Shown: in pieces, positions 9,129 to 64,000 of the stretch
Position numbering within the stretch: the stretch's first letter is position 1
Layout of the letters: every line of letters begins with the position of its first letter
Assembly: GCA_027490755.1 (NCBI GenBank)
Contig: JAIXXL010000021.1
Coordinates: forward strand, 25,675-89,674
Reading direction: 5' to 3'
DNA length: 64,000 nt
Source of the DNA: Betaproteobacteria bacterium
GTDB taxonomy: Bacteria > Pseudomonadota > Gammaproteobacteria > Burkholderiales > UBA3065
Position numbers and translations under genes: made by a program
The notes under the pieces: generated by a model
Seen by the model: the letters and a program-made list of their open reading frames with translations, nothing else
What the model was told of the DNA's origin: nothing
Database searches by the model: none

Positions 9129-9129
9129 G

Positions 9130-9206: not shown

Positions 9207-9247
9207 ACTGGACCAACGATCTACAACTGGCACTGCACGGAAGAGAC

Positions 9248-9324: not shown

Positions 9325-9347
9325 TCTGCGTAACCTGCTTCGGCGCC

Positions 9348-9424
<77 letters not shown>

Positions 9425-9436
9425 AGGGCCGCGATA

Positions 9437-31724: not shown

Positions 31725-32098
31725 GGCGTATTCCAAGCCTGCCAGGCGGCGACCAGCAGCGCCAACCAGATGGCGGCGATCAGCACCGCACCGAGCATCA
31801 TGCGCGGCTTGGCGCGCCCGTCAGCCAGCCACTGCTCGGCCTGTGCGCGGCATTCGGCCATCACCCCGGCGGGCAGGGCGCGCGCCAGCAGGCCCACCGC
31901 CAGCGGCAGCAGCAGCGCCTCGTCCAGATAGCCGATCACCGGAATGAAGTCGGGGATGAGGTCGATCGGCGAGAGCGCGTAGGCCACCACCAGCAGCAGT
32001 CCGGCCTTGATCCAGGCCGGTGTGAGCGGGTGGCGGAGAGCGAACCAGAGCGCGAGGCCGTCGCGTTTGGCGGCGCGGATCCAGGTTTTGAGGTCCAT
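31721..32098 (-). CDS. YkvA/DUF1232 family membrane protein
   Basis: Start at ATG 32098. 'VAYALSPIDLIPDFIPVIGYLDEALLL' is the DUF1232 signature. Confidence 0.65.
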   Translation of the reverse strand: MDLKTWIRAAKRDGLALWFALRHPLTPAWIKAGLLLVVAYALSPIDLIPDFIPVIGYLDEALLLPLAVGLLARALPAGVMAECRAQAEQWLADGRAKPRMMLGAVLIAAIWLALLVAAWQAWNTP

Positions 32099-32258
32099 TG
32101 CGGCATTGTGCCGCAGCCTTGTCAGGCGCGCCCCGGGTGGGGCGGGTTGCGCCGGCATCCATCTGGAGCGGTTCAAGAAAATGGCCGCAGCGTTGACCGC
32201 AAGCAGCATTCGCCCCTACTGTTCGCAACGCTGCACCCCTTCATCCTGGAGACAAAGC

Positions 32259-32426
32259 ATGGACAAGTTGATGTACTACGCAGGCATCGGCGGCATGGTC
32301 GCCAGCATCTCGATCGTCACCTACCTGATCCTCCCGGCCTCCAGTTCGCCGGGCAAGCTTGTTGCCTGCCTTGGTATCGGTGTCGCTTTTTCTGCCCTGA
32401 CGATGCTCAACCGCGGCCGCGCCTGA
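32259..32426 (+). CDS. Small hypothetical membrane protein (55 aa)
   Basis: ATG 32259 after 'ctggagac'. The translation has two hydrophobic segments 'YYAGIGGMVASISIVTYLIL' and 'LVACLGIGVAFSALTML'. No homology assessed. Confidence 0.35.
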   Translation: MDKLMYYAGIGGMVASISIVTYLILPASSSPGKLVACLGIGVAFSALTMLNRGRA

Positions 32427-32529
32427 CCGCTCTCTTTGGTGGCACGGGGCCCGCCGCGCGCGGGCCTCTTTAATTTCTGGACGCCGACTTGACTCCGGAG
32501 GGGCCGGCCAGTACCCTCGCGACTCTCTT

Positions 32530-32605
32530 GGCTAGGTAGCTCAGTTGGTAGAGCATGCGATTGAAAATCGCAGTGTCGGCAGTTCGATTCTGCCCCTGGC
32601 CACCA
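32530..32605 (+). tRNA. tRNA-Phe (GAA)
   Basis: 'ggctaggtagctcagttggtagagcatgcgattGAAaatcgcagtgtcggcagttcgattctgcccctggccacca'. The acceptor, anticodon and T stems all pair. Confidence 0.92.
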
Positions 32606-32610
32606 GACAC

Positions 32611-32641
32611 CAACGCCCAACCCCAAACGGTTGGGCGTTTT
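32611..32641 (+). repeat. Terminator hairpin after tRNA-Phe; left copy of a 31-nt direct repeat
   Basis: 'caacgcccaaccccaaacggttgggcgtttt'. It matches 38004-38034 at 29 of 31 positions, and both differences fall in the hairpin loop. Confidence 0.8.
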
Positions 32642-32644
32642 CAT

Positions 32645-32990
32645 GTGTACTAGCCCCAGAAGCCGCGGCTTCGCGCCGGTTCTGGCTGCGTCGCAGGGGT
32701 CGACGCATACCCTACCGTGGGACCCGACGAGGACAGCAGCGCGCAGGCCCTTCGCTGTGACAGGCACCGCACCATTGCGTAACGGACCTGTTCGCGGCGA
32801 GCCGATGCGCTCACTGTTCTTTGCGGGCATCTCCTTCATCGCGTCGATCTCAAGATTCCGATCGACCAGCAACTTCTGCAGGCTTCTCTTCACCGAACCG
32901 CGACTTCCTCATCAGCCCCTCACTGATCGGAAGGAGCCATCATCTGAAGTTTCAACTGCGCCGAAAATCCCGGGGCAAGTTGGCACTGCA
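32645..32990 (-). mobile_element. IS3-family (IS407-like) remnant with internally deleted, frameshifted orfA/orfB start
   Basis: The minus strand reads an IR-like end, then 'MRKSRFGEE'. This is joined out of frame to '...LQKLLVDRNLEIDAMKEM' (orfA C-terminus). Another frame then gives 'RREQVRYAMVR.LSQRRACALL' (orfB N-terminus). No full transposase is present. Confidence 0.6.
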
Positions 32991-33037
32991 TCGCCGAGAA
33001 GTCAGGCACGTAAAGTAGTTTTACGGCGATACCTTGA

Positions 33038-33658
33038 TCAGCGTTTGGCATCAAAGCCGACATAGCGCCAGAAAACCAGCTTCAACTCAGAAATCGCTGC
33101 AGCAAGATCGAAGTCAGGTTGTATTTGGCTGCGGACGATCACTCCATCGAGCATGGTCGATGCCACCTGCGCAGCATTGTTGATATCTAAATCACCAAAA
33201 AGGCCTTGCGTGATGCCATCGTTCAGATATTTGACGAGGATATCCCTTTCGGTGCAATAAAATCGCTGGATCCCACTCTCAATCATGTCGCGCTGGGGAT
33301 GGGTTGCGGCGAAATCCAGCATTACCTTGACCATGTACCTGATCAGATCGGCTGACTCGATGTGATTATCAAACCAAGCCTCAATAAATTCGGGTGGAGT
33401 GGTGAGCCCCTTGCACATATCTTCATAGCGCGCGATCGCTATATCTGCGGCGTGGTCTAACGAAGCTCGAAATAGCGCTTCCTTGTTCTCAAAGTAATAG
33501 TAAATCAACGCGCTGTTAACCGGGATCGAGTTGGCAATGTCCTTGATGGTCACGGTATTGAAGTCATGTCGGGCGAAATGATAAAGCGCCGCATTCATAA
33601 GTTCGCCGGCTCGATCGGGTCGTTGGCGCATTTTGGTGGTGTTCCGTTCTTTCGGCAT
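33038..33658 (-). CDS. TetR/AcrR family transcriptional regulator
   Basis: Start at ATG 33658 ('MPKERNTTKMRQRPDRAGELMNAALYHFARHDFNTVTIKDIANSIPVNSALIYYYFENKEALF' is the TetR HTH). The gene is AT-rich relative to the backbone. Confidence 0.8.
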   Translation of the reverse strand: MPKERNTTKMRQRPDRAGELMNAALYHFARHDFNTVTIKDIANSIPVNSALIYYYFENKEALFRASLDHAADIAIARYEDMCKGLTTPPEFIEAWFDNHIESADLIRYMVKVMLDFAATHPQRDMIESGIQRFYCTERDILVKYLNDGITQGLFGDLDINNAAQVASTMLDGVIVRSQIQPDFDLAAAISELKLVFWRYVGFDAKR

Positions 33659-33932
33659 AAAACAATTAAAAATCCGGATTTTGCTAGCGAAATATACGAT
33701 ACAAAGCCCAAGGCCACACTGATCCATCTCCGCACCAGAGATGGGAAGGGGCCACTGCCCTGAGGCGATGTGGGCGTCGACCTGGAACTAGCGTGAGCAA
33801 CTTGACCTCGGGGTGCTTCCCGCGAGCAGGTGCAGCCGTGCGCGAATCCCGCCCCGCTCCGGGCGCATCACAAACGGTTCAGGGGGCATCGTCACTTGCA
33901 CCGCACGGCAACCGCGTGGATCTGCTTGTGCC

Positions 33933-33961
33933 TGATTTCAATCAGCAAATGAAAGTTCATT
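33933..33961. promoter_or_regulatory. Two adjacent inverted repeats, candidate TetR operator
   Basis: 'TGATT-tc-AATCA' (33933-33944) and 'AATGAA-ag-TTCATT' (33948-33961). They lie in the roughly 530-bp tetR/permease divergent spacer. Confidence 0.3.
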
Positions 33962-34189
33962 GACGGATTAAGTAATACATGTTGTGATTGGTCTATGGTG
34001 AAGTAGTAGTAGGCCCCAACCAGCACGACTTGGCATCATCAGGCAGCACCGATTGGCTCGACACATGATCGAGCACCGTAGGGAGCAACACAGAAGATGC
34101 TGCGCAGCTGCATGTACTGACCTGCGCTTTCCTGAAGGCCTCACAAATCGATGCCTGCGCCTTTTTGGTGGTGGGCTCAGGAGGTACAC

Positions 34190-52241: not shown

Positions 52242-54836
52242 ATGATGCGTCTTTCGCCTCAGTTGATTGCCTGGCTGGGTGGTGTAGCCAAGCGCGTTGA
52301 TCTGGCGATTTGGCGAAAGACCCTAGAGCTCGTGCTCGGGCGAGCGCCTGAACCGGCGCGTCACGGGCCCGGCACTGCGCAGACTCTCCGCTGGATCGAC
52401 CACCTGCTCGCGCTCAATGATGCCCTGCGTCTTTACTACTGCATCGCACAGGAGCCAGCGCGCGTCCACGAGTTGTCCTCGACTCGCTTGGTCACTTTTG
52501 TGCCTTGTGATGATTCACAGTTGGGCTTGCGCGCCACTGCCGTATCGGTCGCCATGCTTCTCGACATGCTTGGGCCGCGCCTGGGCAATACCCGCTTCGG
52601 ATCGTTCCAACCACTGGATCACGGCTTGTCTGAACGTTTGCGTGAACGGGTCCGCGCCTGGCGCGAATGGGCCGAGGCCAACGCGCTGAACGTCAACGCC
52701 CGCTGGATCGCGCGCGAGGCTGTTGCGCGGGGCATCCCGTATCACCGTGAACCTGGATCCAAGCTGCTCGTTCGGCTCGGGCATGGTGCGAGCCAGCGGC
52801 GACTCAACGGCCCGTACGTGGACCGGGTGAGCAGCGTTGCCACGCATTGGTCAAATGACAAATGGCAGACCAGCAACCTCTTCGCCGCGCACGGCCTGCC
52901 GACGGCCGGGACCCGGTTGGTCGCCAGTTTCGAGCAGGCTCTGGCCCAGGCTAAGCGGTTCGGCTGGCCGGTCGTCGTCAAGCCGCGTTCTACTGACAAG
53001 GGCGTCGGCATCACCATCAACATCACCGACGAACCCGGCCTGCGGCAAGCTTTTGAGCATGCCACCAGATTTCGCGGGGGTGTCCTCGTGGAGCGCCATG
53101 TATCCGGATATGACCATCGCCTGCTGGTGGTCGGTGGCCGCTTTGTCGCCGCTGCTCTCCGACTGCCCGCACGCGTCGAGGGCGATGGCCAAAGGACCAT
53201 CGCGGAACTTGTCCATGCCCTGAATCTGGCCCGGTTTACGGGTCGGTTGCCAGGCGCCTACCGCTCTGAGGTGCCTGTGGTCCTGGACCATGAAGCGCTG
53301 CGGGTCCTCATAGCCCAGGGGTATGCGCCGGGTGACGTTCCAGCGGCAGGCGCCACGGTCACCCTTCGTGGGAACGCGAATCTTTCGACAGGCGGGAGTG
53401 CCGAGGACGTTACCGAGCAGGTTCACGTCGACAACCGCGCGCTGGCGGAGCAAGCGGCACGCCTCATAGGGCTGTGCACGGCAGGGCTCGACCTGCAGAC
53501 GAGCGATATCAGCCGGTCTTGGCGCGAGGTCGGCGGCGCTATCCTCGAGATCAACGCCGGCCCGGGTCTGCCGGTGCACCACTCGAGAACGTCCCGCTAC
53601 ACGGTACGAAAGGCCATCGTCGACGATCTGTTCCCGGCAGGGGCGACCGGTCGGATCCCCACCGCAGGTGTGACTGGCAGCATCGGCAAGACCACAACCT
53701 GCCGCATGCTTTCGAGCATCCTGAAGCATGCCGGGCACACGGTAGCGCTCACGGGCACCCAAGGCGCCTTCCTCGACGAGCGGCAGTTGCGAAAGGGCGA
53801 TCTGGCGGGGGGGCGGGCGGCACTGTCTCTGCTGCAAGACCCTGCGGCCACCGCCTGCGTCGCTGAGCTGGCGCGTGGGGGCCTCATCCGTAGCGGCTTG
53901 GGGTTGGACGTCCTCGATGTCGGTTCGGTGCTGAATGTGTACGACAACCATGTCGGGCTCGACGGCATCGAGACCCGCGAGCAGATGGCCCGCGTCAAGC
54001 AGTTGGTCGTCAGGCATGCCCGGCAGCTGGCGGTCCTGAACGCGGATGACCCGCTATGTCTGGCGATGAGCGATGGTATGGACCCGACCAGGGTGTGTCT
54101 GGTCAGCGAGGCGATGAGTCCGCGACTGACGGCGCACCTTGAGGCGGGTGGCATGGTCGCGACGATGCGCGACGCGGAACGAGGCCCGCTGCTCAGTTTG
54201 CAACGGGGCGCCGACATTCTGGGGGAGATGCCCGTCGCAGACATCCCGGCGACGTGGGGTGCCAGATTCCGCCCGGCGATGCTCAACGCACTGTTCGCTG
54301 CGGCTCTGGCTCACGGGCTCCGCGTACCGTTTCGGCATATCGAGACCGGCCTGGCGGCCTTTACGTCCGATTACGCCAGCAACCCGGGGCGGACGAACCG
54401 CATCTCGGGTCTGCCGTTCGATCTGTGGGTCGCGTGGTGCGATGGCCCCGAGGCGTGCACCGAGATGTCGCGCTTGATGTCCCGAATCGGGGGCGATGTG
54501 ATAGGGCATCTGGTGATCTATGCGGTTGGCAATCGCCCTGACGCCTTCACCCGCGCCTCAGCAGACGCTGTCGCCGGCGCTTTCGATCGCTACTACTGCA
54601 CCGACATGGAAGAAGACCGTCGCGGACGGGCGTTCGGCGAGGTCGCTGGGCTGCTGGCCGACAGCCTTCGGAAGGCAGGGGTCGCCGACTCCGCGATCGT
54701 CGTCGAGCCCTCCAGCAGTGCCGCCGTAAAAAGGGCCTTGGCCGAGATGCCAGCGGGGGGCATGTTGGTCATCCAGACCTACCATCCCGACACAGTCATG
54801 GCCTCGGTGCGTGCCATGTGGCCCGACGCCGCCTAG
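52242..54836 (+). CDS. Cyanophycin synthetase-like protein (N-terminal region + ATP-grasp + Mur-ligase-like domain)
   Basis: ATG-ATG at 52242 (in-frame GTG alternative at 52179). ATP-grasp blocks 'GWPVVVKPRSTDKGVGI', 'VLVERHVSGYDHRLLVVGGRFVAAALR' and 'AILEINAGPGLPVH'. Mur-ligase P-loop 'GVTGSIGKTTTCRML' and 'VAELARGGLIRSGLGLD...NVYDNHVG', as in CphA. The upstream part of the 1080-aa track ORF overlaps the EamA gene in another frame. Confidence 0.8.
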   Translation: MMRLSPQLIAWLGGVAKRVDLAIWRKTLELVLGRAPEPARHGPGTAQTLRWIDHLLALNDALRLYYCIAQEPARVHELSSTRLVTFVPCDDSQLGLRATAVSVAMLLDMLGPRLGNTRFGSFQPLDHGLSERLRERVRAWREWAEANALNVNARWIAREAVARGIPYHREPGSKLLVRLGHGASQRRLNGPYVDRVSSVATHWSNDKWQTSNLFAAHGLPTAGTRLVASFEQALAQAKRFGWPVVVKPRSTDKGVGITINITDEPGLRQAFEHATRFRGGVLVERHVSGYDHRLLVVGGRFVAAALRLPARVEGDGQRTIAELVHALNLARFTGRLPGAYRSEVPVVLDHEALRVLIAQGYAPGDVPAAGATVTLRGNANLSTGGSAEDVTEQVHVDNRALAEQAARLIGLCTAGLDLQTSDISRSWREVGGAILEINAGPGLPVHHSRTSRYTVRKAIVDDLFPAGATGRIPTAGVTGSIGKTTTCRMLSSILKHAGHTVALTGTQGAFLDERQLRKGDLAGGRAALSLLQDPAATACVAELARGGLIRSGLGLDVLDVGSVLNVYDNHVGLDGIETREQMARVKQLVVRHARQLAVLNADDPLCLAMSDGMDPTRVCLVSEAMSPRLTAHLEAGGMVATMRDAERGPLLSLQRGADILGEMPVADIPATWGARFRPAMLNALFAAALAHGLRVPFRHIETGLAAFTSDYASNPGRTNRISGLPFDLWVAWCDGPEACTEMSRLMSRIGGDVIGHLVIYAVGNRPDAFTRASADAVAGAFDRYYCTDMEEDRRGRAFGEVAGLLADSLRKAGVADSAIVVEPSSSAAVKRALAEMPAGGMLVIQTYHPDTVMASVRAMWPDAA

Positions 54837-54846
54837 CGCCTTCCCG

Positions 54847-56646
54847 TCAGCGTGCGTTCGCCGTGTCGGCGGCGTTGGCCTCGAGCATCGGCTCCAGCAG
54901 TTCCTTGAGGCGGCGGATGACGTTGGTATCCAGGTCAGCTTTGTTGCGCTGCCGCCCCGAGTGATCCTCCACCGTCGTGAAGCGGTCGACAGGGCTGCCG
55001 GTGCGCAGTAGTTCTTCGTTACTCACCACCAAGACGATGCGGTCGACGTCCGGGTCCAGCAGAAGGGCGGTGCAGCGTGCGTAAAGCCCTCGCGCTGTCA
55101 GGACCAACTCGGTTCGGTCGGGCCCGACCGTCCGGTCGTGGTCGGTGATGTAACAGCGCTCGTTGCTCGCGGCCGCCTCCGCGCGGATTTTCTCGGCGCG
55201 CTTCCAGGCCGACCCACCGCCAAGGATTGCATGGACAGGGATGCGGCCAGCGTGCGGAAGTACCGTCTCGAACATCTTGCGCAACAACGCTCGCGTACGC
55301 GGACCGCCGGACACGAAAGGTGCCGAGTTCACCTCGATGATGACGGCAGAGTTCTCGTGCCAAGGTATGGATGCGTCATCCGTCATAAGGTCCACACCGG
55401 CGATGTCCAGCCCCATCTGCCGCGCGGCCCGCACGCAGATCGCCGCGTTATCCGGGTGCAGATGGTCCGTTACGTTCCCAGATTCACCACCCCACTCTGT
55501 GGATTCTCGCGGGCGCAGGTAGACCCATCGTCCCTCAGTCGGCACAGACTCTACGGTGAGTCCCTGGCGGGAGAGTTCGGCCTCGGCGACCTTGTCGATC
55601 TGCGGCACATTCGATCGCTCCCACAATGGCTTGAGGCTCGCCTGGTGGTTTGCCAGCGTGATGAGCTCTTGTACCGTCGATGTCCCATCGCCCTGAATAC
55701 GTCTCGGAAAGCGCGTCACAGCAAACAGCACGCTGCCGAATCCCACCAGTACACGGTGGCAGATTCCGGGCGCCTGAGCTTCGACGAGGACCCGGCGCGA
55801 CAGTCTGTTTGCAGCCTCGAAGGCGGCGGCGAGGGTCGTCTCGTCGCCGATGCCGGTGGTCACGCCCTCTCCCCGGTCACGGTCGTTGGGTTTCACAACC
55901 ACGGGCCATCCGATCGCACGCGCGGCCTCAGCAGCTTGCTGCTCATCCAGAACCAGATGGTTCAAAGGCACAGGGATCCCAACCTGGCGCAAGATCTGCG
56001 TGGTCAGGGATTTTCTTTGAGCTGCACTTGCACCCAGATGAGAATCGGTGGAGACGTTGCTGCGGTGCAAGCGCATGGCTCTCGCTCCCCAGCCCAGGCA
56101 GTAGCGCGATGCTCCGAGGTGCAGGAAGGGAATGTCAGCGTCGTACGCGGCCCACAAAAGGCCGATCGAAGACTTGCCGCCTTCGCTCATGGTGCTTCGG
56201 ACCGGTTCGATGAACCCATCATGGATGCTCTTCTGCAGGCTCTCGTGGTCTCGTTCCGCAGCCGCGGGTTCAAGCCCCGCTTGCAGGATCCGTATGGCCA
56301 ACTTGTAGGCACTGTTGCGCTGCGCGGGCGGAAGAGGGTCGACGACCGGGACGCGGGCCACCACTTCGAACATGTCGTTCTCACCGGGCACGATCCGAAC
56401 GACAAGCCCGGCCTCGAAGACCGGTGCCCGGGCGGCCCGAAGGAGATGCGCGGCGAGCGCCAGCAGCCGATCGACGAGCAGCGCCGGGGTCGGGCTGGCG
56501 CCGGCCGACTCACCGGGCGGGAGACCAGTCCAACGCTCGAGCACTTGATCGAGTCTGGCTATCTCGCATGTGGTCTGGAGCGTGGCCTTGTCGACCCGGA
56601 GCGTGATGGTTCGCGTCCTTTGGCGGAGGCCGGGTAGGTAGCTCAT
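54847..56646 (-). CDS. CphA2-like ATP-grasp protein (CphA-type N/ATP-grasp regions, vestigial Mur-ligase region without P-loop)
   Basis: 599 aa. 'GKSSIGLLWAAYDADIPFLHLG...CLGWGARAMRL', 'GWPVVVKPNDRDRGEGV', 'VLVEAQAPGICHRVLV' and 'AVIIEVNSAPFV' are paralogous to 52242-54836. At the position of the P-loop it reads 'ILGGGSAWKRA'. Confidence 0.75.
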   Translation of the reverse strand: MSYLPGLRQRTRTITLRVDKATLQTTCEIARLDQVLERWTGLPPGESAGASPTPALLVDRLLALAAHLLRAARAPVFEAGLVVRIVPGENDMFEVVARVPVVDPLPPAQRNSAYKLAIRILQAGLEPAAAERDHESLQKSIHDGFIEPVRSTMSEGGKSSIGLLWAAYDADIPFLHLGASRYCLGWGARAMRLHRSNVSTDSHLGASAAQRKSLTTQILRQVGIPVPLNHLVLDEQQAAEAARAIGWPVVVKPNDRDRGEGVTTGIGDETTLAAAFEAANRLSRRVLVEAQAPGICHRVLVGFGSVLFAVTRFPRRIQGDGTSTVQELITLANHQASLKPLWERSNVPQIDKVAEAELSRQGLTVESVPTEGRWVYLRPRESTEWGGESGNVTDHLHPDNAAICVRAARQMGLDIAGVDLMTDDASIPWHENSAVIIEVNSAPFVSGGPRTRALLRKMFETVLPHAGRIPVHAILGGGSAWKRAEKIRAEAAASNERCYITDHDRTVGPDRTELVLTARGLYARCTALLLDPDVDRIVLVVSNEELLRTGSPVDRFTTVEDHSGRQRNKADLDTNVIRRLKELLEPMLEANAADTANAR

Positions 56647-56782
56647 CGAGATCTTCGCGCGGGTTCGATATAGATACGCCGCAGGATACTTGCTCGCGAC
56701 GCGGCTTTCGAGTTAGCCTGCGGATGCGATGGGGGTCTCGCCCCGCAAAGTAGTTTTTCGCCAACTCTTGAGGGAACCACAG

Positions 56783-56881
56783 ATGCAAAATCAAGCTCCG
56801 CTCGCCCCGTATGGCGCGCTTCGTTTCACTCCGATCTCTACCAAAGTCGGTGGTGGCAAGGGTCTCGACAAGCCCGCCTGA
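56783..56881 (+). CDS. Unannotated 32-codon ORF (candidate precursor/primer peptide)
   Basis: 'gaggga'-N7-ATG. Translation 'MQNQAPLAPYGALRFTPISTKVGGGKGLDKPA'. It ends 20 nt before the HExxH ORF and is too short for the ORF track. Only positional evidence supports it. Confidence 0.3.
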   Translation: MQNQAPLAPYGALRFTPISTKVGGGKGLDKPA

Positions 56882-56901
56882 TCCCCGAGTGGTCCTCCAG
56901 T

Positions 56902-58014
56902 TTGCCATTGCTCGAACCTTGCTTTGCTGAAGGTGCTTCGCTTGACGCGGACATAAACGCCGCGCTTCGTGAAGGGGTGGCATGGTGTGCGCAACAAGCC
57001 GGGCTTGACCCGGCTTGTTGTTTTGATGGCGGGCCGATGCCGTCTGCGTGGTGCGGCAGCCCGGTCGATTTCGCTGCCTATTACGATTGGGCCATAGCCT
57101 TGACGTCGGCCGTCGACGATCCGCCGGCTCCCTGGGAGCCGGCTTCTTCTTCCGGTTCTGATGCAGCGGCGCGGCGTTGGCGTCCCTTTCTGCAACATTT
57201 CTCCGCCGCGTTCGCCTCGTCGGCCCGACCCGCGACCGATCACGCGACCCGTAACGTGTTGGCCGCGCCCGCCGTCGTCACCTTGGGCGAGCCTTGGTTC
57301 GACGCCGCAGCGAGCGAGCGCATCGTCCGCTGGTTGGACCTTGAGCCTGACAACGCCATGGCGCTGGTCGGCCTCAGCGCCGCTGAACTCCACGAGGCTC
57401 GCAGCGATGTCGAGCGCGCATTGGCTGCGTTGGCGGCCTGGGCACCCGGTTTCCACGGCGAGTTCGTCGCGGTGGTGCGGCGGTTGATCGTCGTCAAGCC
57501 GTCTGGCTCGCAGCGGATGACCTTCCGTGCCGCATCTTCGTTTGCGCTGTGGGGCGCTCTGGCCGGCAACCAGCAGGTGCACCCGCGCTGGTGGGACTGG
57601 GTGCCCACCTTGGTCCATGAGACGGCGCACTCGATCCTGTTCGCCCTGTCGCGACACGCCCCACTGGTCGAGAACGACCCAGCGGAGCGTTACGCCTCGC
57701 CCTTGCGCGATGATCCTCGGCCGATCGACGGCATCTACCACGCAGCATTTGTCTCGGCGCGCGAGGCGGTGGCTTTGGGCGAGTGTCTGCAGGCGATCGA
57801 TGCTGGCGTGGCACTTCCCGGAGTGGGTGATGATGAAGTCAGCGCTGTGCGCGCCGACTTTGCCGCGGTGCGGGAGAACTCGGTGCGGTCTTTTCATGAC
57901 TGCGTCGCCGTGCTCGAGCGGCATGCGCGGTTGAGCCCGTCTGGTCGCGACATACTTGATACGCTGCGACGGGAGCTTGAGGCGTTGGTCGGTGCGGCGG
58001 TCCACGCTGCTTAG
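56902..58014 (+). CDS. HExxH-motif domain protein (peptide beta-hydroxylase-like family)
   Basis: 370 aa, TTG start. The central 'PTLVHETAHSILF' HExxH motif sits in a helix-rich protein with no signal peptide, so it resembles the HEXXH-motif domain family rather than a classical zincin protease. Confidence 0.65.
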   Translation: MPLLEPCFAEGASLDADINAALREGVAWCAQQAGLDPACCFDGGPMPSAWCGSPVDFAAYYDWAIALTSAVDDPPAPWEPASSSGSDAAARRWRPFLQHFSAAFASSARPATDHATRNVLAAPAVVTLGEPWFDAAASERIVRWLDLEPDNAMALVGLSAAELHEARSDVERALAALAAWAPGFHGEFVAVVRRLIVVKPSGSQRMTFRAASSFALWGALAGNQQVHPRWWDWVPTLVHETAHSILFALSRHAPLVENDPAERYASPLRDDPRPIDGIYHAAFVSAREAVALGECLQAIDAGVALPGVGDDEVSAVRADFAAVRENSVRSFHDCVAVLERHARLSPSGRDILDTLRRELEALVGAAVHAA

Positions 58015-58087
58015 CTTCGCCAGCCAGCCCCGAGGCTGATCAAGCCCGTGCGGGTTGACTTGCCGCGGCAGCCCTAGCCCGCCAACC

Positions 58088-58999
58088 ATGAACATCCTGC
58101 TCACCGGGGCATCGGGGTATTTCGGCAGCGCGCTTTTGGCCGAACTCTTGCCGGCCCACCGCGCGAACCTGCACCGGGTGACCGTGCTAGTTCGCGGGGA
58201 CCAGGCAGCGCAGTCGGGTCGGTCAGACGTCCCCACGCTGCGCGAGATGGACTTGCACGCGTCGACGCTCCGCTCGCGAGGCATCGATACCGTCATCCAT
58301 CTTGCTGCAGCGCGCTCGTCCACAGATATCCCAGCGCAGAACCGCTCCCTGGAGTTGAGCCGCAGACTGCTCGAAGCCTCAGCGGGTGCAGATGTGAGGC
58401 GCCTCGTCCTCGCGTCCAGTCACGCCGTGTACGGGACACAGCCAACGCCGTGGGACGAGGATGTGACTGTTCCCGCGCCCGTGACCTTGTACGGCTTGGC
58501 AAAACGCGCAACCGAGTTGATGCTCGATGCCAGTCCGGTGTCGACGGTCTCGGCCCGTCTGGCCAAGCTGGTCGGGCCGTCGCCGAGGTTCCGCGTTCAG
58601 CCAAGCGAACTCCCCCACGTCCTCTTGTCGTACGCCCTCAAGGGAAAGCTGGTTGTGATGCGCAACCCTAAACAGCGTTTCGATTTCCTCGACGTGCGCG
58701 ATGCAGTGCAGGGGGTCATCGCGATCGCCAACCACTCTGGGGAGGGGTTGCCAGGTGCGATCAACTTGGGTTCAGGTGGCGTGGTGATGAGTGCGGAGGT
58801 TGCCGCAATGGTCGATGACGTGTTCCGACCAATGGGTTTTCCCCTGCGTTATCAATTCGAGACCGAGAGTACGCCAGCACCGAGGGACTTCGGGATGTCC
58901 ATCAAACTTGCCCACCGTTGCTTGGGGTGGAGCCCGGAAATCGCCCTGCGGATGACGCTTGAAGGTATTGCAGGGCAATGGGCAATACGTGCCCTCTAA
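58088..58999 (+). CDS. NAD-dependent epimerase/dehydratase (extended SDR)
   Basis: ATG 58088: 'MNILLTGASGYFGSAL' (Rossmann GxxGxxG) and catalytic 'YGLAK' (YxxxK). Confidence 0.8.
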   Translation: MNILLTGASGYFGSALLAELLPAHRANLHRVTVLVRGDQAAQSGRSDVPTLREMDLHASTLRSRGIDTVIHLAAARSSTDIPAQNRSLELSRRLLEASAGADVRRLVLASSHAVYGTQPTPWDEDVTVPAPVTLYGLAKRATELMLDASPVSTVSARLAKLVGPSPRFRVQPSELPHVLLSYALKGKLVVMRNPKQRFDFLDVRDAVQGVIAIANHSGEGLPGAINLGSGGVVMSAEVAAMVDDVFRPMGFPLRYQFETESTPAPRDFGMSIKLAHRCLGWSPEIALRMTLEGIAGQWAIRAL

Positions 59000-59038: not shown

Positions 59039-62000
59039 TCAATGAACCCAAGTGCGCAACAGTTCGTGCAGCCCGGTCAGCCTGCTCCGGGTAAGCAGCG
59101 AGGCTTTGTCGGAGTACGCATGCACCTGCTCATCGACGAACTCGACCCGATCGATCTGTCCCAGGGGCATCCCTCTGGCGAGGAACTCGTCGGTCTGCAC
59201 CACGACCACCAGCGCCCCGACATCCTTTCTTAGAACCAAGGCTCGGGTTCGCTCATATAAGACCCTTCCCGACGCCATTGCATGCGTTCGGCCTGACGGT
59301 GCAATTGTACGTTCTGCGCTGCTCAAGAACGCCGCGAGCCCTTTTCTGCAGAGTTCTTGCCATCGTGTCTCCGCCGCGCTCCACGCCGCGTCCCCACCCA
59401 CAAAAGCCTCCACAGGTATCCGGCCTTTGTTCACCAGCAGTCGGTCGAGATACTCGGGCAGGTAGCGGCGCGAGATCTCTCCGCCACCCAGCAAGGGCGC
59501 GTAGTTCACCTCATTGATGACCGCACCGTTCTCGTACCATGGCCGGGTGATGTCGGGGCTGATGATGTCCACGCCAGCGACCTCCAGGCTCATGAGCGCG
59601 GTGGCATCGAGCGCGATCCTCAGGTTGTCCGGATGAAGGTCGTGCGTAACTTCCTCGTCGACGCCGCCCCATGCCGAGGTCTCGATGCGTCGCAGACGCA
59701 CAAAGCGCCCCTTGCCGGGGACCGACTCGGCTAGCCAGCCGTCGCGCTTTAGGGTCTGCACGGCAAGTTCGTCCAGGGCGATCGGGTTGCACTGCCACGG
59801 CGGGATGAGCGACTGTCGCGCCCGTTCTCGCTCGACCAGCTCCCGTACTGTCGATTCGCCGTCCCCGTAGACGCCGATTGGGAGTCTGCGCACGGCATAC
59901 AGCAGCCGACCCGCGGTGATGAACAGCCGATGGCAAACCCCCTCGACCTGCTGCTCGACCAGTACCTGCTTGCCTCGTGATAGCTTGAGCGCTGCCGCGA
60001 ACGCAGCGTCGAGTGTCTCTGCATTGACATCGACGCTGACGCCTTCGCCACGCTCGCGGTCGGCCGGTTTCACGACCACCGGGTAACCCAGCCGGTCGGC
60101 GATCTGCTGCGCTTGTTCGCGTGCGCGCGCAACCCCGTGCCGCGGCGCTGGCAGACCTGCTTCGCGCAACAACTGCGCGGTCACGCGCTTGTTCTCTGTC
60201 AGCGCCATGCCGAAGACCGAATCCCGGTCGGTCGTGCTCCGGTCGATCCTCCGTGCCCGTTCACCCCAGCCCAATTGGTAGATGCCGCCGCTGATCGGTC
60301 GGAACGGTACGCCAGTCTCCCGCGCGACACGGAGCACCTCGAACGTGGATTTCCCGGCAGATACAGCTTGGGCGTGGCGCTTTACCAAGCTTTCATAGAT
60401 CTTTGCAAAGAACCCTTCGCGGAGCGAGGCATCTGCAGGGTCGGCGTTGTTCGCCCATTTGGCGACGGCGGATGCCTGCTTGAGAACATCCTGCAACACG
60501 CTATTTGGCGCCGCCTCGGTACCATTCAGACGGATAGTGGCTTGCCAACGCCCAGCGCGTGCGGTGTCAGGCTGACAGGTGAGGACCATCGGCTCATCAA
60601 ACATCGGCACTCGGACCGCATGCAGCAGGGCCAAGGCAAACCGCAAGACGCCGTGCAGCCAGAATCGGGCCCGCTCCTCTGTCCCCGAGGGAACCGTCTG
60701 GGGTTCCTCTGCGCGACCCGCATGGCCCGCGAGCAGTGTCAGCCAAGCCTGGAGTCTTAAGGCGTCTGGCTGGGCAGGGGGCTCGAAAGCCACATTCAGC
60801 GTTCCATTGGTGGCGACATGCGGCGCAGATGCCATTGGGGTCTTGCCACTCGTGGCCCCGGTCAAGTACTTGTGGAGCAGGGCCTGCACCGCATCGTGCT
60901 GGATCTTCCCTTGCTCGTTGCGGGGTATGCGATCAACCACCACTGCAGCGTGCAGCGCATGTGCCCCCAATCGTTCTTTCACATGCTCGACCAGGTGCGG
61001 CGGAGCGGCATCCATGGCGCGCCTGAGTTCGACAAGTGCCACAGGGACGTCCTGTAGAACAGAGTGCCGTATTGGCATGACGTGCGCGTCAGCGACAGCG
61101 GGGTGTGTCCGTAGGCACTCCTCCACCTCGGCGGGGTAGAGGTTGACGCCGCTGATGATCATCATGCCGTCGGCTCGACCGCGGTGGACGAGTTGCCCGC
61201 CAGGGGTCAACAAGCCTATATCGCCCGTCGCAAACCAGCCCTTCTTGAAAACGCGGCGGTTGTGTTCTCCCTCACCCACATAGCCGCAGATCGCAGCCGG
61301 GGAGTGGATCTCGATGAGGCCTTCTTGTCCATCAGGTAAGCGCTTGCCGTGCGCATCGACGACCCGCAAGCGGAAACCCGGGAGGGGGCTGCCCACGCCA
61401 CCGGGAAGCGTAAAAACATCCTCTGGCCTGGTTATCGTCGATGTGTGTGTCTCGTTGGTGCCGTAGAACAGGAACAGGTTGGGTGTCAGGCGGTCACGGA
61501 TCCTCTGGCGCAGGCCCATCGATACTGTTGAGCCTCCGATCATCAGGGCGTGCAGTCCAGCCAAGGGGCCCTTTCGCTCATTTTCAGGCTTCCTCAGCAT
61601 CAGCTCGGCGTGGAAGGCCGTGCCGTAGACAGCAGAGACTTGGCCAGACGTGACGAGAGACTCGAAATCGAACGCACCTGGTTTGCCAAGAAACACGCTG
61701 GCGCCTATGGCAAAGGCCTCGAGGCAACGTTGTTTGGCGGCATAGAAATGCATGCTCACCAAGCTGAGCAATGAGTCTTCGGGCCCGTATGGGAGCCACT
61801 TTGGCCCCAGGTTTGCGCGGGTGAGCTGTTGTCGATGGGTCACCGGTATGACCTTCGGCACGCCTGTGGACCCAGACCCGGTCACGTAGAGCCACGGTTG
61901 GTCGGCCACGTCTTCAGCGGCCGGTGGGACAGAGTCAGGGTCACCCGAGAGGGTCCCGAAGTCGATCGTGGGTAGGCCGTATGCCTTTGATTGAGGGGTG

Positions 62001-62356
62001 GCGTCGCCAGTCAGGATCGTGGCGGCGCTCGTGAGTGACAGCTGGCGTCGTGCATGTTCTTCGGGAGTCGAACTTGCGAGGCTCAGCGAGGTTGCACCAA
62101 TGTGCGCGAGTGCGAGCATTGCGACCAGATGGTCCAAAGGATCGTCCAGCGCTATGGCTACGGTACTACCCGTAACAATCCCGTATGCAAGCAGTCCGGA
62201 AGCGGTGGCGGCGACCCGCTGTTGCAATTCCACATAGGTGAGACGTTGGTCCGAGGTGGCGACAGCCGCCACGCCGGGATGCTGAATTGCCTCCCGGGAG
62301 AGGAGGCTTACGATGTTCTGTGACACTAGGGGGCTCTGCGGTGGTCGGCTAGGCAA
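59039..62356 (-). CDS. Fusion protein: ANL-superfamily adenylate-forming domain + CphA-like N/ATP-grasp module
   Basis: N-terminal approx. 500 aa: 'YVTGSGSTGVPKVIPVTH', 'FYGTNE', 'GWFATGDIG', 'GRADGMMIISGVNLYPAEVEE' and 'PRNEQGKIQ' (AMP-binding core motifs). C-terminal approx. 580 aa: 'GKSTFEVLRVARETGVPF...QLGWGERARRI', 'GYPVVVKPADRERGEGV', 'VLVEQQVEGVCHRLFI', 'AVINEVNYAPLL', then a P-loop-less region 'FVGGDAAWSAA'. An alternative GTG start at 62326 overlaps the GT stop (tagtg). Confidence 0.8.
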   Translation of the reverse strand: MPSRPPQSPLVSQNIVSLLSREAIQHPGVAAVATSDQRLTYVELQQRVAATASGLLAYGIVTGSTVAIALDDPLDHLVAMLALAHIGATSLSLASSTPEEHARRQLSLTSAATILTGDATPQSKAYGLPTIDFGTLSGDPDSVPPAAEDVADQPWLYVTGSGSTGVPKVIPVTHRQQLTRANLGPKWLPYGPEDSLLSLVSMHFYAAKQRCLEAFAIGASVFLGKPGAFDFESLVTSGQVSAVYGTAFHAELMLRKPENERKGPLAGLHALMIGGSTVSMGLRQRIRDRLTPNLFLFYGTNETHTSTITRPEDVFTLPGGVGSPLPGFRLRVVDAHGKRLPDGQEGLIEIHSPAAICGYVGEGEHNRRVFKKGWFATGDIGLLTPGGQLVHRGRADGMMIISGVNLYPAEVEECLRTHPAVADAHVMPIRHSVLQDVPVALVELRRAMDAAPPHLVEHVKERLGAHALHAAVVVDRIPRNEQGKIQHDAVQALLHKYLTGATSGKTPMASAPHVATNGTLNVAFEPPAQPDALRLQAWLTLLAGHAGRAEEPQTVPSGTEERARFWLHGVLRFALALLHAVRVPMFDEPMVLTCQPDTARAGRWQATIRLNGTEAAPNSVLQDVLKQASAVAKWANNADPADASLREGFFAKIYESLVKRHAQAVSAGKSTFEVLRVARETGVPFRPISGGIYQLGWGERARRIDRSTTDRDSVFGMALTENKRVTAQLLREAGLPAPRHGVARAREQAQQIADRLGYPVVVKPADRERGEGVSVDVNAETLDAAFAAALKLSRGKQVLVEQQVEGVCHRLFITAGRLLYAVRRLPIGVYGDGESTVRELVERERARQSLIPPWQCNPIALDELAVQTLKRDGWLAESVPGKGRFVRLRRIETSAWGGVDEEVTHDLHPDNLRIALDATALMSLEVAGVDIISPDITRPWYENGAVINEVNYAPLLGGGEISRRYLPEYLDRLLVNKGRIPVEAFVGGDAAWSAAETRWQELCRKGLAAFLSSAERTIAPSGRTHAMASGRVLYERTRALVLRKDVGALVVVVQTDEFLARGMPLGQIDRVEFVDEQVHAYSDKASLLTRSRLTGLHELLRTWVH

Positions 62357-63582
62357 TGCTGTACCCGCTCCATCAGCCGGTCGCCATTGCTTTGTAGATC
62401 ATGAAGTTTTCGCCCGGCCCCTCGAGCGCGGTCAACGTGGCGCCCATACACGGCCTCATCGTCAAACAACTCCTCCAGTCGTTGCGAAACATGCTCGACG
62501 ATTTCTTGGGGCACTAACCTTAAGTAGGGGGCTTCCTGGTACTCGGGCGGGAAGGCTATTGTCTCGCCGCCCTCCCCAAGTATCTCCGGGATACCGCCGG
62601 AGGTGCTGCCGATAACCGGGATACCATTCAGCAAAGCCTCAACGACCACGCGGGGACCGCTGTCCCACCAAAGGCTGGGGGCCAGAAGCACGCGAGCGCG
62701 GCCGTAAACCGGGCGCATATCCCGGGTGTTTGGGGTTAGGAGGACGTTTCGGACCTCATCCGGATCGATGCCCGTCTGGCTGGCGACGCTTTCAAGTAAG
62801 GCCAGCCATGTCGCGCGCGTGTCGACCACCTCAAACGGTATGTCTGGTCGACGCTGCGCCATGTGCAGGATCAGTTGAGCGACGAACACGCCTCCTTTGG
62901 CAGGTATCGGGTTGATAAACAGAACCCGCTCCCGCCTGTGAGCGTTCGCTGTGACCGGTGCCGGGTCTACGAAGGTCCCGAGCGGAATCATGTGGTAGCC
63001 CTCGCGCTGGCGATACATCTCAGCCGTTGCGCGGGTGTCGGTGAAAATGAAGTCGACATCTCTACACCATGTTGTTCCCCGGTTGTTGCCGTGCATTAGG
63101 AAGACACCTACGGCGATGTTCCTGCGGTGTGCCTCGTTCGCCGTCAACAGTGTGATGAGGGAGTTGTCGAAGAACAAGACGAGATCTGGCGAGTCTGCAT
63201 CGAGCAGGCGGCAGTACTCATCGAACCAGCGTTGCTCCTCGAAAGAGAGCATCAGCCGGCGCTGGCTGCGCTCGGTGACAAGGAGGCGGTGTCGTAGCAA
63301 GCCGTCGGGCACCTCGACGAATCTCCCTTTCTGTGCAAGCAGCCTTGGCCACAACTCTGCGCGACTCGCCATGCCCTGGGGGTTGACGAAAACCGTCGCG
63401 CCAATTGCCGCAACGTCGCATCCACGCAGTGCCAATTGGTTGAGGCACTCCCGGACCATCAGGCCGGCTCCGTTTGCGGTGTCGAGGAGCGTATTGGGGG
63501 AGGCCCAGAGGATTCTGATTGGCGGACTCATCTTGGATCCAACAACCGCAGCGGCGAGACTGTATCTAGCAGATTCAATCAC
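62326..63582 (-). CDS. Glycosyltransferase family 1/4 (GT-B)
   Basis: C-terminal 'LLAPSLWWDSGPRVVVEALLNGIPVIGSTSGGIPEILGEGGETIAF' is the GT1 EX7E-type region. The probable ATG start at 63531 gives 'MSPPIRILWASPN'; the track ORF starts at GTG 63582. Confidence 0.8.
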   Translation of the reverse strand: MIESARYSLAAAVVGSKMSPPIRILWASPNTLLDTANGAGLMVRECLNQLALRGCDVAAIGATVFVNPQGMASRAELWPRLLAQKGRFVEVPDGLLRHRLLVTERSQRRLMLSFEEQRWFDEYCRLLDADSPDLVLFFDNSLITLLTANEAHRRNIAVGVFLMHGNNRGTTWCRDVDFIFTDTRATAEMYRQREGYHMIPLGTFVDPAPVTANAHRRERVLFINPIPAKGGVFVAQLILHMAQRRPDIPFEVVDTRATWLALLESVASQTGIDPDEVRNVLLTPNTRDMRPVYGRARVLLAPSLWWDSGPRVVVEALLNGIPVIGSTSGGIPEILGEGGETIAFPPEYQEAPYLRLVPQEIVEHVSQRLEELFDDEAVYGRHVDRARGAGRKLHDLQSNGDRLMERVQHCLADHRRAP

Positions 63583-63754
63583 GGCCCCGGTCCGATGTGG
63601 CAGTGGGAGGACTTGCCCGCGCTACTGTGCCTCTGGATGGGGCTCCTCGCAAGGCGTCGGGCAGATACTCACGATATGCCTGGTGAGGAACGGGCAAAGC
63701 AAGACTGACGAACGAGACGCGGTATCCTGAGCCCCGAAACGGCGCAAACACCTT

Positions 63755-64000
63755 ATGCACCCTCCCATCAATTCACCCGATCGTCCCGCCTTTATCATCT
63801 GGACGATGCAGCGAACTGGTGGTACCAACTTCGCCCGTTGGCTGGATGGCTTCACCGGTAAACCCTTAGCCTTGCATGAACCGTTTATGGAGACACGAAT
63901 CCTCGGTCATGCCTCACGGGGTTGGAGACTAAACCAAAATGTAAGCATGCTTGAGGATGCTTTGTGCGCCGCACTGCACCAGCGACCTAGTTTAAAACAT
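63755..64000 (+). CDS. Hypothetical protein, 5' part only (possible sulfotransferase-like P-loop); continues beyond window
   Basis: ATG 63755, and the frame is open for 82 codons to the window edge. 'RPAFIIWTMQRTGGTNFARWL' is reminiscent of a PAPS-binding 5'-PSB loop. It is missing from the ORF track because no stop is reached. G+C is lower here. Confidence 0.35.
   Translation, partial: MHPPINSPDRPAFIIWTMQRTGGTNFARWLDGFTGKPLALHEPFMETRILGHASRGWRLNQNVSMLEDALCAALHQRPSLKH

What the first reader, a model, noticed from the sequence alone, without database searches (positions are those of the whole stretch)
56902..58014. HExxH-motif protein embedded among ATP-grasp ligases
This 370-aa cytoplasmic-looking protein has a single central HETAH motif and no protease-like signal peptide or second zinc-ligand block that I can recognise. 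Proteins of this type have been linked to 2-oxoglutarate-dependent beta-hydroxylation of peptide residues. In this context it would predict hydroxylated residues (for example beta-hydroxy-Asp) in the product. That modification has not been described for cyanophycin-type polymers.
Basis: partly seen in the sequence, partly recalled or inferred. Interest (0 to 1): 0.6.

Follow-up and report, generated by a model that had tools for sequence, protein, structure and literature searches.

The report
Peptide hydroxylase with its own substrate gene
The gene encodes an iron- and alpha-ketoglutarate-dependent "HExxH" peptide oxygenase of a recently recognised family, and its likely substrate is the 32-residue peptide encoded just upstream rather than a cyanophycin polymer, so the three-gene set of peptide, oxygenase and ATP-grasp ligase looks like a widespread, unstudied pathway for modified ribosomal peptides.

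Summary
ORF 56902..58014 (+) encodes a 370-aa soluble protein with one HETAH motif (aa 239-243).

The family call is right. It scores 89 bits against TIGR04267 (cutoff 40). Its only PDB relatives by sequence and by fold are ChlH (8s5f) and SjiH, and no zincin protease matches. There is in fact a second conserved block, S266-P-x-R269-x3-R273-P-x2-G277-x2-H280-x6-R287.

The proposed substrate, a hydroxylated cyanophycin-type polymer, is not supported. The 32-aa ORF 20 nt upstream (56783..56881) is a real gene: 15 synonymous against 2 non-synonymous changes versus a relative. It belongs to an unnamed peptide family with a leader (LAPYG or KLLGF) and one to six core motifs [A/T/S]-K-[V/I]-G. The motif is 26-fold enriched next to HExxH genes. 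Seen from the ligase side, it occurs only where HExxH is present.

71 of 83 loci also carry an ATP-grasp ligase of one of two mutually exclusive types. The window has the cyanophycin-synthetase-2-like type. The CphA-like G+M enzyme, SDR, AMP-binding fusion and GT4 are strain-specific additions.

Best reading: a RiPP-type oxygenase acting on the adjacent peptide. The modified residue and the ligase chemistry are unknown.

The parts
56902..58014 (+). alphaKG-HExxH-type peptide oxygenase, 370 aa (the finding)
   Evidence: ORF. TIGR04267 at 89.2 bits against cutoff 40, E 3e-25, aa 170-354 against model positions 1-176 of 177. ChlH 8s5f by sequence at E 2e-7. AF2 model pLDDT 91.6. Foldseek hits only ChlH (TM 0.64/0.69) and SjiH.
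57616..57630 (+). HETAH motif (H239, E240, H243), the putative Fe(II) ligands
   Evidence: Invariant in 32 homologues. Aligned to HEHRH of ChlH. Coordinates.
57697..57762 (+). Second conserved block SPxRxxxRPxxGxxHAxxVxxR. H280 is the candidate third metal ligand; R269, R273 and R287 are candidate alphaKG-binding residues.
   Evidence: Invariant columns. Same block in ChlH (SPWREDLRPPSGLLHAIFV). PMC12614342 says the family has positively charged residues for alphaKG binding. The roles of the individual residues are inferred.
56783..56881 (+). 32-aa candidate precursor peptide MQNQAPLAPYGALRFTPISTKVGGGKGLDKPA (leader-like LAPYG, core STKVG)
   Evidence: SD plus ATG. Conservation with L001 begins exactly at the ATG, with 15 synonymous against 2 non-synonymous differences in 23 codons. 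It is a called 31-aa gene in L166, with the first 23 residues identical. LAPYG-x9-KVG is invariant in the clade. There are 96 unnamed homologues in public protein sets.
54847..56646 (-). ATP-grasp ligase A, 599 aa, with cyanophycin-synthetase-2-like architecture (N, G and truncated M domains). It is the conserved partner of the HExxH gene in this branch.
   Evidence: Pfam/NCBIfam: CphA models at 251 bits, below the 877 cutoff. AF2 pLDDT 90.1. Foldseek: CphA1 7wae at E 2e-40 and CphA2 7ta5 at TM 0.66/0.67 over 594 columns. A full-length homologue lies next to HExxH in 31 of 85 loci.
59039..62356 (-). AMP-binding (adenylating) domain fused to ATP-grasp ligase B, 1105 aa
   Evidence: Pfam AMP-binding, AMP-binding_C and ATP-grasp. 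The C-terminal 600 aa are 70% identical to the standalone second ATP-grasp of L166 and 37% identical to ligase A. The fusion with an overlapping GT4 gene recurs without HExxH in L109.
52242..54836 (+). CphA-like enzyme with ATP-grasp (G) and Mur-ligase (M) domains, 864 aa from the probable ATG. An accessory, strain-specific gene.
   Evidence: NCBIfam CphA models at 580 and 575 bits, below cutoffs 877 and 850; the N domain is not matched. Start choice. Absent from L166 and L001, which are syntenic.
58055..58999 (+). NAD-dependent epimerase/dehydratase (SDR), 314 aa. Accessory.
   Evidence: PF01370 at E 4e-32. No homologue next to HExxH in any of 85 loci.
62326..63582 (-). GT4 glycosyltransferase, 418 aa. 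Accessory; forms a module with the AMP-binding/ATP-grasp fusion.
   Evidence: PF13692 and PF00534. 55% identical to the L109 GT4, which also overlaps an 1118-aa fusion ORF. Never next to HExxH in the 85 loci.

Best explanation
The gene encodes a mononuclear non-haem Fe(II)/alpha-ketoglutarate oxygenase of the alphaKG-HExxH family, the ChlH fold. Iron is probably held by H239 and H243 of the HETAH motif plus H280, and the co-substrate by the invariant arginines R269, R273 and R287. The enzyme most likely acts on the ribosomal peptide encoded 20 nt upstream and probably co-transcribed with it. It would recognise the leader-like LAPYG element and oxidise a residue in or next to the invariant [A/T/S]-K-[V/I]-G core. 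By analogy with characterised members, the most likely outcome is beta-hydroxylation of a side chain; my first guesses are the Lys or the beta-branched Val. The neighbouring CphA2-like ATP-grasp ligase A then acts, or has already acted, on the same peptide, presumably forming an amide or ester bond through an acyl-phosphate. Shown here: family membership, fold, conserved residues, that the peptide gene is real, and the statistical coupling of peptide, oxygenase and ligase. Inferred: metal and co-substrate use, the peptide as substrate, the residue modified, the order of steps and the ligase chemistry.
For: Family: TIGR04267 at 89.2 bits against cutoff 40, full model coverage. ChlH is the sole PDB sequence hit. 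The model (pLDDT 91.6) matches only ChlH (prob 1.0, TM 0.64/0.69) and SjiH. H239, E240, H243, H280, R269, R273 and R287 are invariant in 32 homologues down to 26% identity. The literature says family members bind Fe through HExxH, use positively charged residues for alphaKG, and modify leader-bearing ribosomal peptides (PMC13060819; PMC12614342; PMC12636437). Substrate: the small ORF is under purifying selection. The motif x[AST]K[VI]G occurs at 0.578/kb in the same-strand zone next to HExxH against 0.022/kb elsewhere in 2.5 Mb of strand sequence. There are 68 unique peptides with 139 core instances, often in 2-6 tandem copies. In loci chosen through the ligase, the peptide is present in 10 of 12 with HExxH and in essentially none of 68 without. 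Partner: 71 of 83 loci have an ATP-grasp-superfamily gene beside HExxH.
Against: No biochemical data exist for this clade. The modified residue cannot be deduced. Members of the family also carry out oxidative backbone cleavage and even hydrolysis (PMC12636437). The third-ligand and alphaKG-binding roles rest on conservation, because the founding structural paper was not available and model coordinates could not be inspected. About 22 of 85 HExxH loci showed no peptide with the strict pattern. The cluster has no transporter or protease, so the fate of the product is unclear.
Confidence: 0.75

Rival explanations
1. Same enzyme and same peptide, but the reaction is C-alpha hydroxylation of the invariant Gly (or of the small residue before Lys). 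That would cleave the backbone oxidatively and release C-terminally amidated fragments ending in ...K-V/I-NH2. The oxygenase would then double as the processing enzyme for multi-core precursors.
For: PflC and PosC of this family cleave the backbone oxidatively at a small residue, and the authors infer that Ala and Gly favour alpha-hydroxylation (PMC12636437). Gly follows K-[V/I] in all 139 core instances by definition of the pattern, and V/I dominates K-x-G at 141 of 195. Precursors carry 2-6 cores, yet no protease gene recurs in the neighbourhood.
Against: Some repeat units lack the Gly (TKVS, AKVA). An amidated C-terminus would leave a CphA-type ligase no carboxylate to activate. Most characterised members are plain beta-hydroxylases.
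Confidence: 0.2
2. One reading: the enzyme beta-hydroxylates Asp (or another residue) in a non-ribosomal cyanophycin-like polymer made by the surrounding CphA-like ligases.
For: The window holds three CphA-G-domain-like ATP-grasp domains, one of them with a Mur-ligase M domain. Asp is a known target of the family.
Against: The G+M enzyme is absent from the 92%- and 76%-identity relatives L166 and L001, which keep peptide, HExxH and ligase. None of the 85 HExxH loci shows a match to the M half of that enzyme. The HExxH gene tracks the ribosomal peptide, not the ligase family. All characterised members act on leader-bearing ribosomal peptides. The CphA-like protein scores below the CphA equivalog cutoffs.
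Confidence: 0.06
3. The protein is a zinc metallopeptidase, a leader or linker peptidase for the adjacent precursor, that only resembles the oxygenase family.
For: HExxH with the Glu retained. The family fold is described as reminiscent of zincins, and PflC hydrolyses leaderless substrates with several metals (PMC12636437). No protease is encoded nearby.
Against: No Pfam peptidase family matches. No zincin structure appears among the Foldseek hits; after ChlH and SjiH the next E-value is 0.5. There is no metzincin HExxHxxGxxH extension. The invariant Arg-rich block fits alphaKG binding.
Confidence: 0.08
4. The small ORF is not a substrate. It would be a translated regulatory leader for the HExxH operon, or a chance ORF.
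For: It is very short and sits immediately upstream of the enzyme gene.
Against: It is conserved at the amino-acid level across phyla, with a synonymous substitution pattern. Copy number of the motif varies from 1 to 6. In L003 and L006 the peptide gene lies about 1 kb downstream of the HExxH gene. There are 96 homologous called genes.
Confidence: 0.03

Closest known systems
ChlH, the HExxH domain of ChlB (PDB 8s5f; Morishita et al. 2024, Nat Chem; cited)
   Same: Same fold (Foldseek prob 1.0, TM 0.64/0.69). Same HExxH and the downstream SPxRxDxRPxxGxxHAxFV block. Acts on a ribosomal peptide.
   Different: Only 16% identity. ChlH is fused to a radical SAM cyclophane synthase and needs a pre-formed cyclophane; its targets are Asp and His. 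The window's protein is standalone, pairs with an ATP-grasp ligase, and has peptides with no conserved Asp or His.
PflC/PosC, PesO and BpmH, the standalone alphaKG-HExxH enzymes (PMC12636437, PMC13060819, PMC12257519)
   Same: Standalone enzymes of the same family (IPR026337/TIGR04267), each encoded next to its precursor peptide and guided by a leader.
   Different: Their gene clusters contain MNIO enzymes, nitroreductase, B12-rSAM or Asn-synthetase-like enzymes, and their precursors are Gln-rich/ARMD, R(V/T)DN or FRF types. None has an ATP-grasp partner or a K-[V/I]-G core. Pairwise identity to them could not be measured.
Cyanophycin synthetase 2 (CphA2; PDB 7ta5, 8fxi), compared with partner ligase A
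   Same: Same three-part architecture and length (TM 0.66/0.67 over 594 columns). The ATP-grasp G domain is of the CphA/GshF clade, which activates backbone carboxylates.
   Different: 21% identity, and it scores far below the CphA model cutoffs. It lacks the Pfam CphA N-domain signature. It is genetically linked to a ribosomal peptide and an oxygenase, which is not known for cyanophycin synthetases.
Graspetides (microviridin and plesiocin type RiPPs made by MdnC/PsnB ATP-grasp ligases)
   Same: A RiPP logic of leader plus repeated short cores plus an ATP-grasp ligase. The cores are Lys-containing.
   Different: The ligase is much closer to CphA (E 2e-40) than to PsnB (7dro, E 8e-10). Some precursors have no Asp or Glu to crosslink (L001; L006). 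The oxygenase is an obligatory partner.

Membership tests
alphaKG-HExxH peptide beta-hydroxylase family (TIGR04267 / IPR026337) | Score above the curated cutoff of the family HMM over the whole domain | tested here: met
   89.2 bits against cutoff 40, E 3.1e-25, model positions 1-176 of 177
alphaKG-HExxH peptide beta-hydroxylase family (TIGR04267 / IPR026337) | Conserved HExxH iron-binding motif | tested here: met
   H239, E240 and H243 are invariant in 32 homologues and align to the HEHRH of ChlH
alphaKG-HExxH peptide beta-hydroxylase family (TIGR04267 / IPR026337) | Positively charged residues for alphaKG binding and a further metal ligand downstream of the motif | tested here: met
   R269, R273, R287 and H280 are invariant and shared with ChlH. 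The requirement is stated in PMC12614342. The roles of individual residues are inferred, not measured.
alphaKG-HExxH peptide beta-hydroxylase family (TIGR04267 / IPR026337) | ChlH-type fold, distinct from both cupin-type alphaKG oxygenases and zincin proteases | tested here: met
   Foldseek against the PDB returns only 8s5f (E 5e-10, TM 0.64/0.69) and 22ob; the next hit has E 0.5
alphaKG-HExxH peptide beta-hydroxylase family (TIGR04267 / IPR026337) | Encoded with a ribosomal precursor peptide that it modifies | tested here: met
   Genetic association only: conserved peptide gene 20 nt upstream, 26-fold motif enrichment, co-occurrence. Modification itself was not tested.
alphaKG-HExxH peptide beta-hydroxylase family (TIGR04267 / IPR026337) | Fe(II)-, alphaKG- and O2-dependent hydroxylation activity | not testable with these tools
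   Needs enzymology and mass spectrometry
Zincin metalloproteases | HExxH plus a family-specific third zinc ligand signature (the metzincin HExxHxxGxxH with Met-turn, or the gluzincin downstream Glu), and similarity to a peptidase family | tested here: not met
   The motif context is HETAHSILFAL, with no G or H extension. No Pfam peptidase hit. No zincin structure among the fold hits.
Canonical Fe/alphaKG dioxygenases (double-stranded beta-helix, HxD/E...H) | Cupin/JmjC fold and 2OG-FeII_Oxy Pfam domains | tested here: not met
   No Pfam hit. The model is mainly helical with a small sheet.
   580 and 575 bits against cutoffs 877 and 850. The match starts at model position 140-142, so the N domain is not matched.
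Graspetide (omega-ester peptide) RiPPs | MdnC/PsnB-type ATP-grasp, and precursor cores with conserved acidic plus Ser/Thr/Lys residues for side-chain crosslinks | tested here: not met
   The ligase is CphA-like. The L001 and L006 precursors contain no Asp or Glu.

The most novel reading that the evidence does not exclude
The peptide, HExxH oxygenase and CphA2-like ligase cassette defines a new RiPP class in which a cyanophycin-synthetase-type ATP-grasp enzyme works on a ribosomal peptide. For example, it could acylate the invariant Lys (or the hydroxyl installed by the oxygenase) with an amino acid. In the window's strain, the extra G+M CphA-like enzyme, the adenylating ligase, the SDR and the GT4 could extend that into a branched, cyanophycin-like or glycosylated chain primed by a ribosomal peptide. 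This would join ribosomal and cyanophycin-type peptide synthesis, which are currently treated as separate.
Probability: 0.12. Interest if true: 0.85.

Novelty: new variant of a known kind. Interest (0 to 1): 0.6.

Why it matters
The enzyme family was recognised only in 2024. A handful of members have been studied, and each has revealed new chemistry: beta-hydroxylation of Asp, His, Phe, Gln and Pro, and oxidative backbone cleavage.

This clade is large, with 686 clusters at 50% identity at E <= 1e-30, and it spans Proteobacteria, Verrucomicrobia, Planctomycetes, Myxococcota and Acidobacteria. It comes with a readily recognisable precursor family that no source has named and with an obligatory ATP-grasp ligase of one of two types. 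That gives a well-defined and directly testable three-gene system: co-express it and read the mass.

It would also be the first link I could find between cyanophycin-synthetase-like ligases and ribosomal peptides. Many "cyanophycin synthetase" auto-annotations on ~600-aa proteins are therefore probably wrong.

Tried and rejected
1. The founding structural paper (Morishita 2024) is not held, so ligand roles rest on conservation and on secondary citations.
2. Model coordinates are not exposed to scripts, so metal-site distances could not be measured.
4. PflC/PosC sequences exist only as OCR-damaged construct DNA in the supplement, so identity to characterised standalone members was not computed.
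5. NCBIfam found no family for the peptides, and Pfam and NCBIfam found none for the ~326-aa partner. Searches of the paper library for the peptide motifs and for HExxH plus ATP-grasp returned nothing relevant, and SjiH is not described in any held paper.
6. Rfam found nothing near the cluster, and there is no sigma-70-like promoter in 56600-58100.
7. Alignment A3 was spoiled by a wrongly included sequence and was not used.
8. I considered a graspetide-type intrapeptide crosslink and rejected it as the general mechanism, because some precursors lack acidic residues.
9. I considered C-terminal extension of the peptide by the CphA-type ligase and judged it unlikely, because C-termini are not conserved while internal motifs are.

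Full report
OBSERVATION. The ORF at 56902..58014 (+) exists as described: TTG start, 370 aa, and one HExxH motif, HETAH, at residues 239-243 (window 57616-57630). Composition alone predicts 0.02 such motifs. The N-terminus is not hydrophobic and no 19-residue window exceeds a Kyte-Doolittle mean of 1.4, so it looks like a soluble cytoplasmic protein. The start codon agrees with aligned homologues. The gene does lie among ATP-grasp genes.

WHAT THE PROTEIN IS. Pfam has no model for it. NCBIfam TIGR04267, now named 'aKG-HExxH-type peptide beta-hydroxylase', matches at 89.2 bits against a curated cutoff of 40, covering model positions 1-176 of 177. The only sequence relative in the PDB is ChlH (8s5f, E 2e-7). 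That alignment includes the HExxH and a downstream block, SPLRDDPRPIDGIYHAAFV against SPWREDLRPPSGLLHAIFV.

An alignment of 32 homologues, down to 26% identity, has the following invariant residues: H239, E240, H243, S266, P267, R269, R273, P274, G277, H280, A281, V284 and R287. An AlphaFold2 model built on that alignment is confident (pLDDT 91.6, pTM 0.91). In a Foldseek search of the PDB it matches only ChlH (prob 1.0, TM 0.64/0.69) and SjiH (22ob). The next hit has E 0.5, and no zincin protease appears.

The literature describes the family as Fe(II)/alphaKG oxygenases that bind iron through the HExxH motif and use positively charged residues for alphaKG. They act on leader-bearing ribosomal peptides. 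Known reactions are beta-hydroxylation of Asp, His, Phe, Gln and Pro, and oxidative backbone cleavage (PMC12636437; PMC13060819; PMC12614342).

THE SUBSTRATE GENE. Twenty nucleotides upstream lies a 32-codon ORF (56783..56881) with a GAGGGA Shine-Dalgarno. Compared with a relative whose HExxH protein is 76% identical (L001), the intergenic DNA is essentially unconserved until exactly this ATG. Over the next 23 codons there are 15 synonymous and 2 non-synonymous differences. In the closest relative (L166, 92%) a gene caller found the same gene, and its first 23 residues are identical.

Related loci carry the same peptide. In single-unit peptides the invariant residues are L-A-P-Y-G, nine residues, then K-V-G. 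In several genomes the whole unit is repeated two to four times in one ORF. More distant HExxH loci have peptides with one N-terminal leader, (I/L)xLDxSKLLGF(K/D), followed by up to six short cores of the type GAK(I/V)GK. Intermediates such as KLLSPYG and KLLSLYG link the two forms.

The numbers support the association:
- Over 85 loci, the pattern x-[AST]-K-[VI]-G occurs at 0.578 per kb in the same-strand zone next to the HExxH gene, against 0.022 per kb everywhere else. That is a 26-fold enrichment.
- There are 68 unique peptides with 139 core instances and the consensus [LIV]-[GAS]-[ATS]-K-[VI]-G-x-K.
- In variant units the Lys is retained more often than the V/I or the G.
- A profile of the LAPYG type finds 96 called peptides (29-118 aa) among 5.8 billion proteins. 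All are unnamed or 'hypothetical'.
- NCBIfam has no family for these peptides, and no held paper contains the motifs.

THE PARTNERS. Clustering all neighbouring ORFs in 83 non-redundant loci gave two partner families that never co-occur:
- The ~600-aa ATP-grasp protein found in the window, present in 31 loci.
- A ~326-aa protein with no Pfam hit, present in 40 loci.

A profile of the second family hits D-Ala-D-Ala ligases in the PDB (E 4e-5) across the ATP-grasp E-x-N motif, so both partners belong to the ATP-grasp superfamily. Together they accompany the HExxH gene in 71 of 83 loci.

The window's ligase A (54847..56646) models confidently (pLDDT 90.1). It superposes along its whole length on cyanophycin synthetases. 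The best length-matched hit is CphA2 (7ta5, TM 0.66/0.67 over 594 columns), whereas the graspetide ligase PsnB is a distant hit. By sequence it is far below the CphA cutoffs, and its family is mostly unnamed or auto-labelled 'cyanophycin synthetase'.

Starting instead from this ligase family in metagenomes, only about 12 of 80 loci have an HExxH neighbour. The K-[VI]-G peptide is found in 10 of those 12 and in essentially none of the other 68. The peptide therefore follows the oxygenase, not the ligase. This is the strongest available argument that it is the oxygenase's substrate.

THE REST OF THE WINDOW'S CLUSTER. The island sits between an EamA gene and, in relatives, thiG. In L166 it contains only ligase A, the peptide, HExxH and a second ligase B. 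In L001 it also has a methyltransferase, an unknown gene and an AP_endonuc_2-family protein.

In the window, ligase B carries an N-terminal AMP-binding domain; its C-terminal 600 aa are 70% identical to L166's ligase B. A GT4, an SDR and a CphA-like G+M enzyme are added. The G+M enzyme (52242..54836) scores 580 bits, below the CphA cutoff of 877. The SDR and GT4 have no match in any of the 85 HExxH loci, and none of those loci shows a match to the M half of the G+M enzyme.

The pair of GT4 and AMP-binding/ATP-grasp fusion recurs elsewhere without HExxH (L109, GT4 55% identical). The window therefore joins a RiPP-like module to a second recurrent module. Whether the two cooperate is open.

MECHANISM. 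Most likely (0.75) the protein is an Fe(II)/alphaKG oxygenase that binds the leader-like part of the adjacent peptide and oxidises a residue in or near the K-[V/I]-G core. By precedent this would be a beta-hydroxylation, with the Lys and the beta-branched Val/Ile as my first candidates.

A serious variant (0.2) is C-alpha hydroxylation of the following Gly, leading to oxidative cleavage and amidation as in PflC/PosC. That would explain multi-core precursors without a protease, but it fits poorly with a carboxylate-activating ligase.

Because some precursors have no acidic residue, the ligase probably joins an external carboxylate to the peptide, at the Lys amine or a new hydroxyl, rather than crosslinking the peptide internally. 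This is inference only.

NOVELTY. The enzyme is a new member of a known, recently defined family, and automatic annotation would already name it. The following look undescribed, as far as the held literature and curated libraries show:
- the precursor family;
- its obligatory pairing with an ATP-grasp ligase of one of two types;
- the use of a CphA2-like enzyme in a ribosomal-peptide context.

I rate the whole as a new variant of a known kind, a RiPP pathway built around an alphaKG-HExxH enzyme. The clade is large: 686 representatives at E <= 1e-30 and 4,224 at E <= 1e-3.

LIMITS. There is no biochemistry. The founding structure paper and two fold libraries were unavailable. Identity to the characterised standalone members was not measured. 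The literature search covers only the held open-access library.

Noticed in passing
L026-L085 (for example L026:7369-8373, L037:4575-5531); alignment A2: A ~326-aa protein family with no Pfam or NCBIfam model is the alternative partner of the HExxH/peptide pair in 40 loci, and it never co-occurs with the 600-aa ATP-grasp. A profile search links it to D-Ala-D-Ala ligases only through the E-x-N ATP-grasp motif (E 4e-5), so it seems to be a very divergent, unannotated ATP-grasp ligase.
   Followed up: partly
window 59039-63582; L109:2102-6617: The overlapping gene pair of GT4 glycosyltransferase and AMP-binding/ATP-grasp fusion recurs in metagenome contigs that lack any HExxH gene or K-[V/I]-G peptide (GT4 55% identical). 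In those HExxH-negative loci AMP-binding enzymes (10 loci), SDRs (7) and extra ATP-grasp paralogues also recur. This looks like a separate, non-ribosomal ligase module that has joined the RiPP-like module in this strain.
   Followed up: partly
L013, L015, L016, L017, L018, L019, L022, L031, L076 (peptide ORFs listed): In Sphingomonadaceae, Alcaligenaceae and some Burkholderiales the precursor peptides end in a second conserved, strongly basic tail (…RRVVRRNAR, …VVRLNARR, …RKVVRRRAR). The window's peptide lacks it. Its role is unknown.
   Followed up: no
L003:11972-12139; L006:11709-12116: In these loci (L006 is Candidatus Nitrotoga fabula; L003 is an unnamed metagenome contig) the precursor genes lie about 1 kb downstream of the HExxH gene rather than upstream, and they carry long poly-Pro or Pro/Ser tails after the KVG core. 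L003 also has a canonical 2OG-FeII_Oxy_3 gene next to the ATP-grasp.
   Followed up: no
window 63730-64000 (+): An ORF of at least 90 aa (…PAFIIWTMQRTGGTNFARWLDGFTGKPLALHEPF…) runs off the end of the window just beyond the GT4, so the island continues past the window. In relatives the island ends at thiG.
   Followed up: no
window 6001-10000 and 32001-34000: Two stretches of markedly lower G+C (0.55-0.57 against about 0.68) coincide with tRNA genes (three at 9133-9424 on the - strand, one at 32530-32602 on the + strand). These may be integrated elements. The HExxH island itself is also lower in G+C (0.60-0.65).
   Followed up: no
Proteins P0073-P0107: Many ~600-aa members of the ligase A family are auto-annotated 'cyanophycin synthetase' or 'acetate--CoA ligase family protein', although they lack the Mur-ligase M domain and the Pfam CphA N-domain. 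These names are probably misleading.
   Followed up: partly
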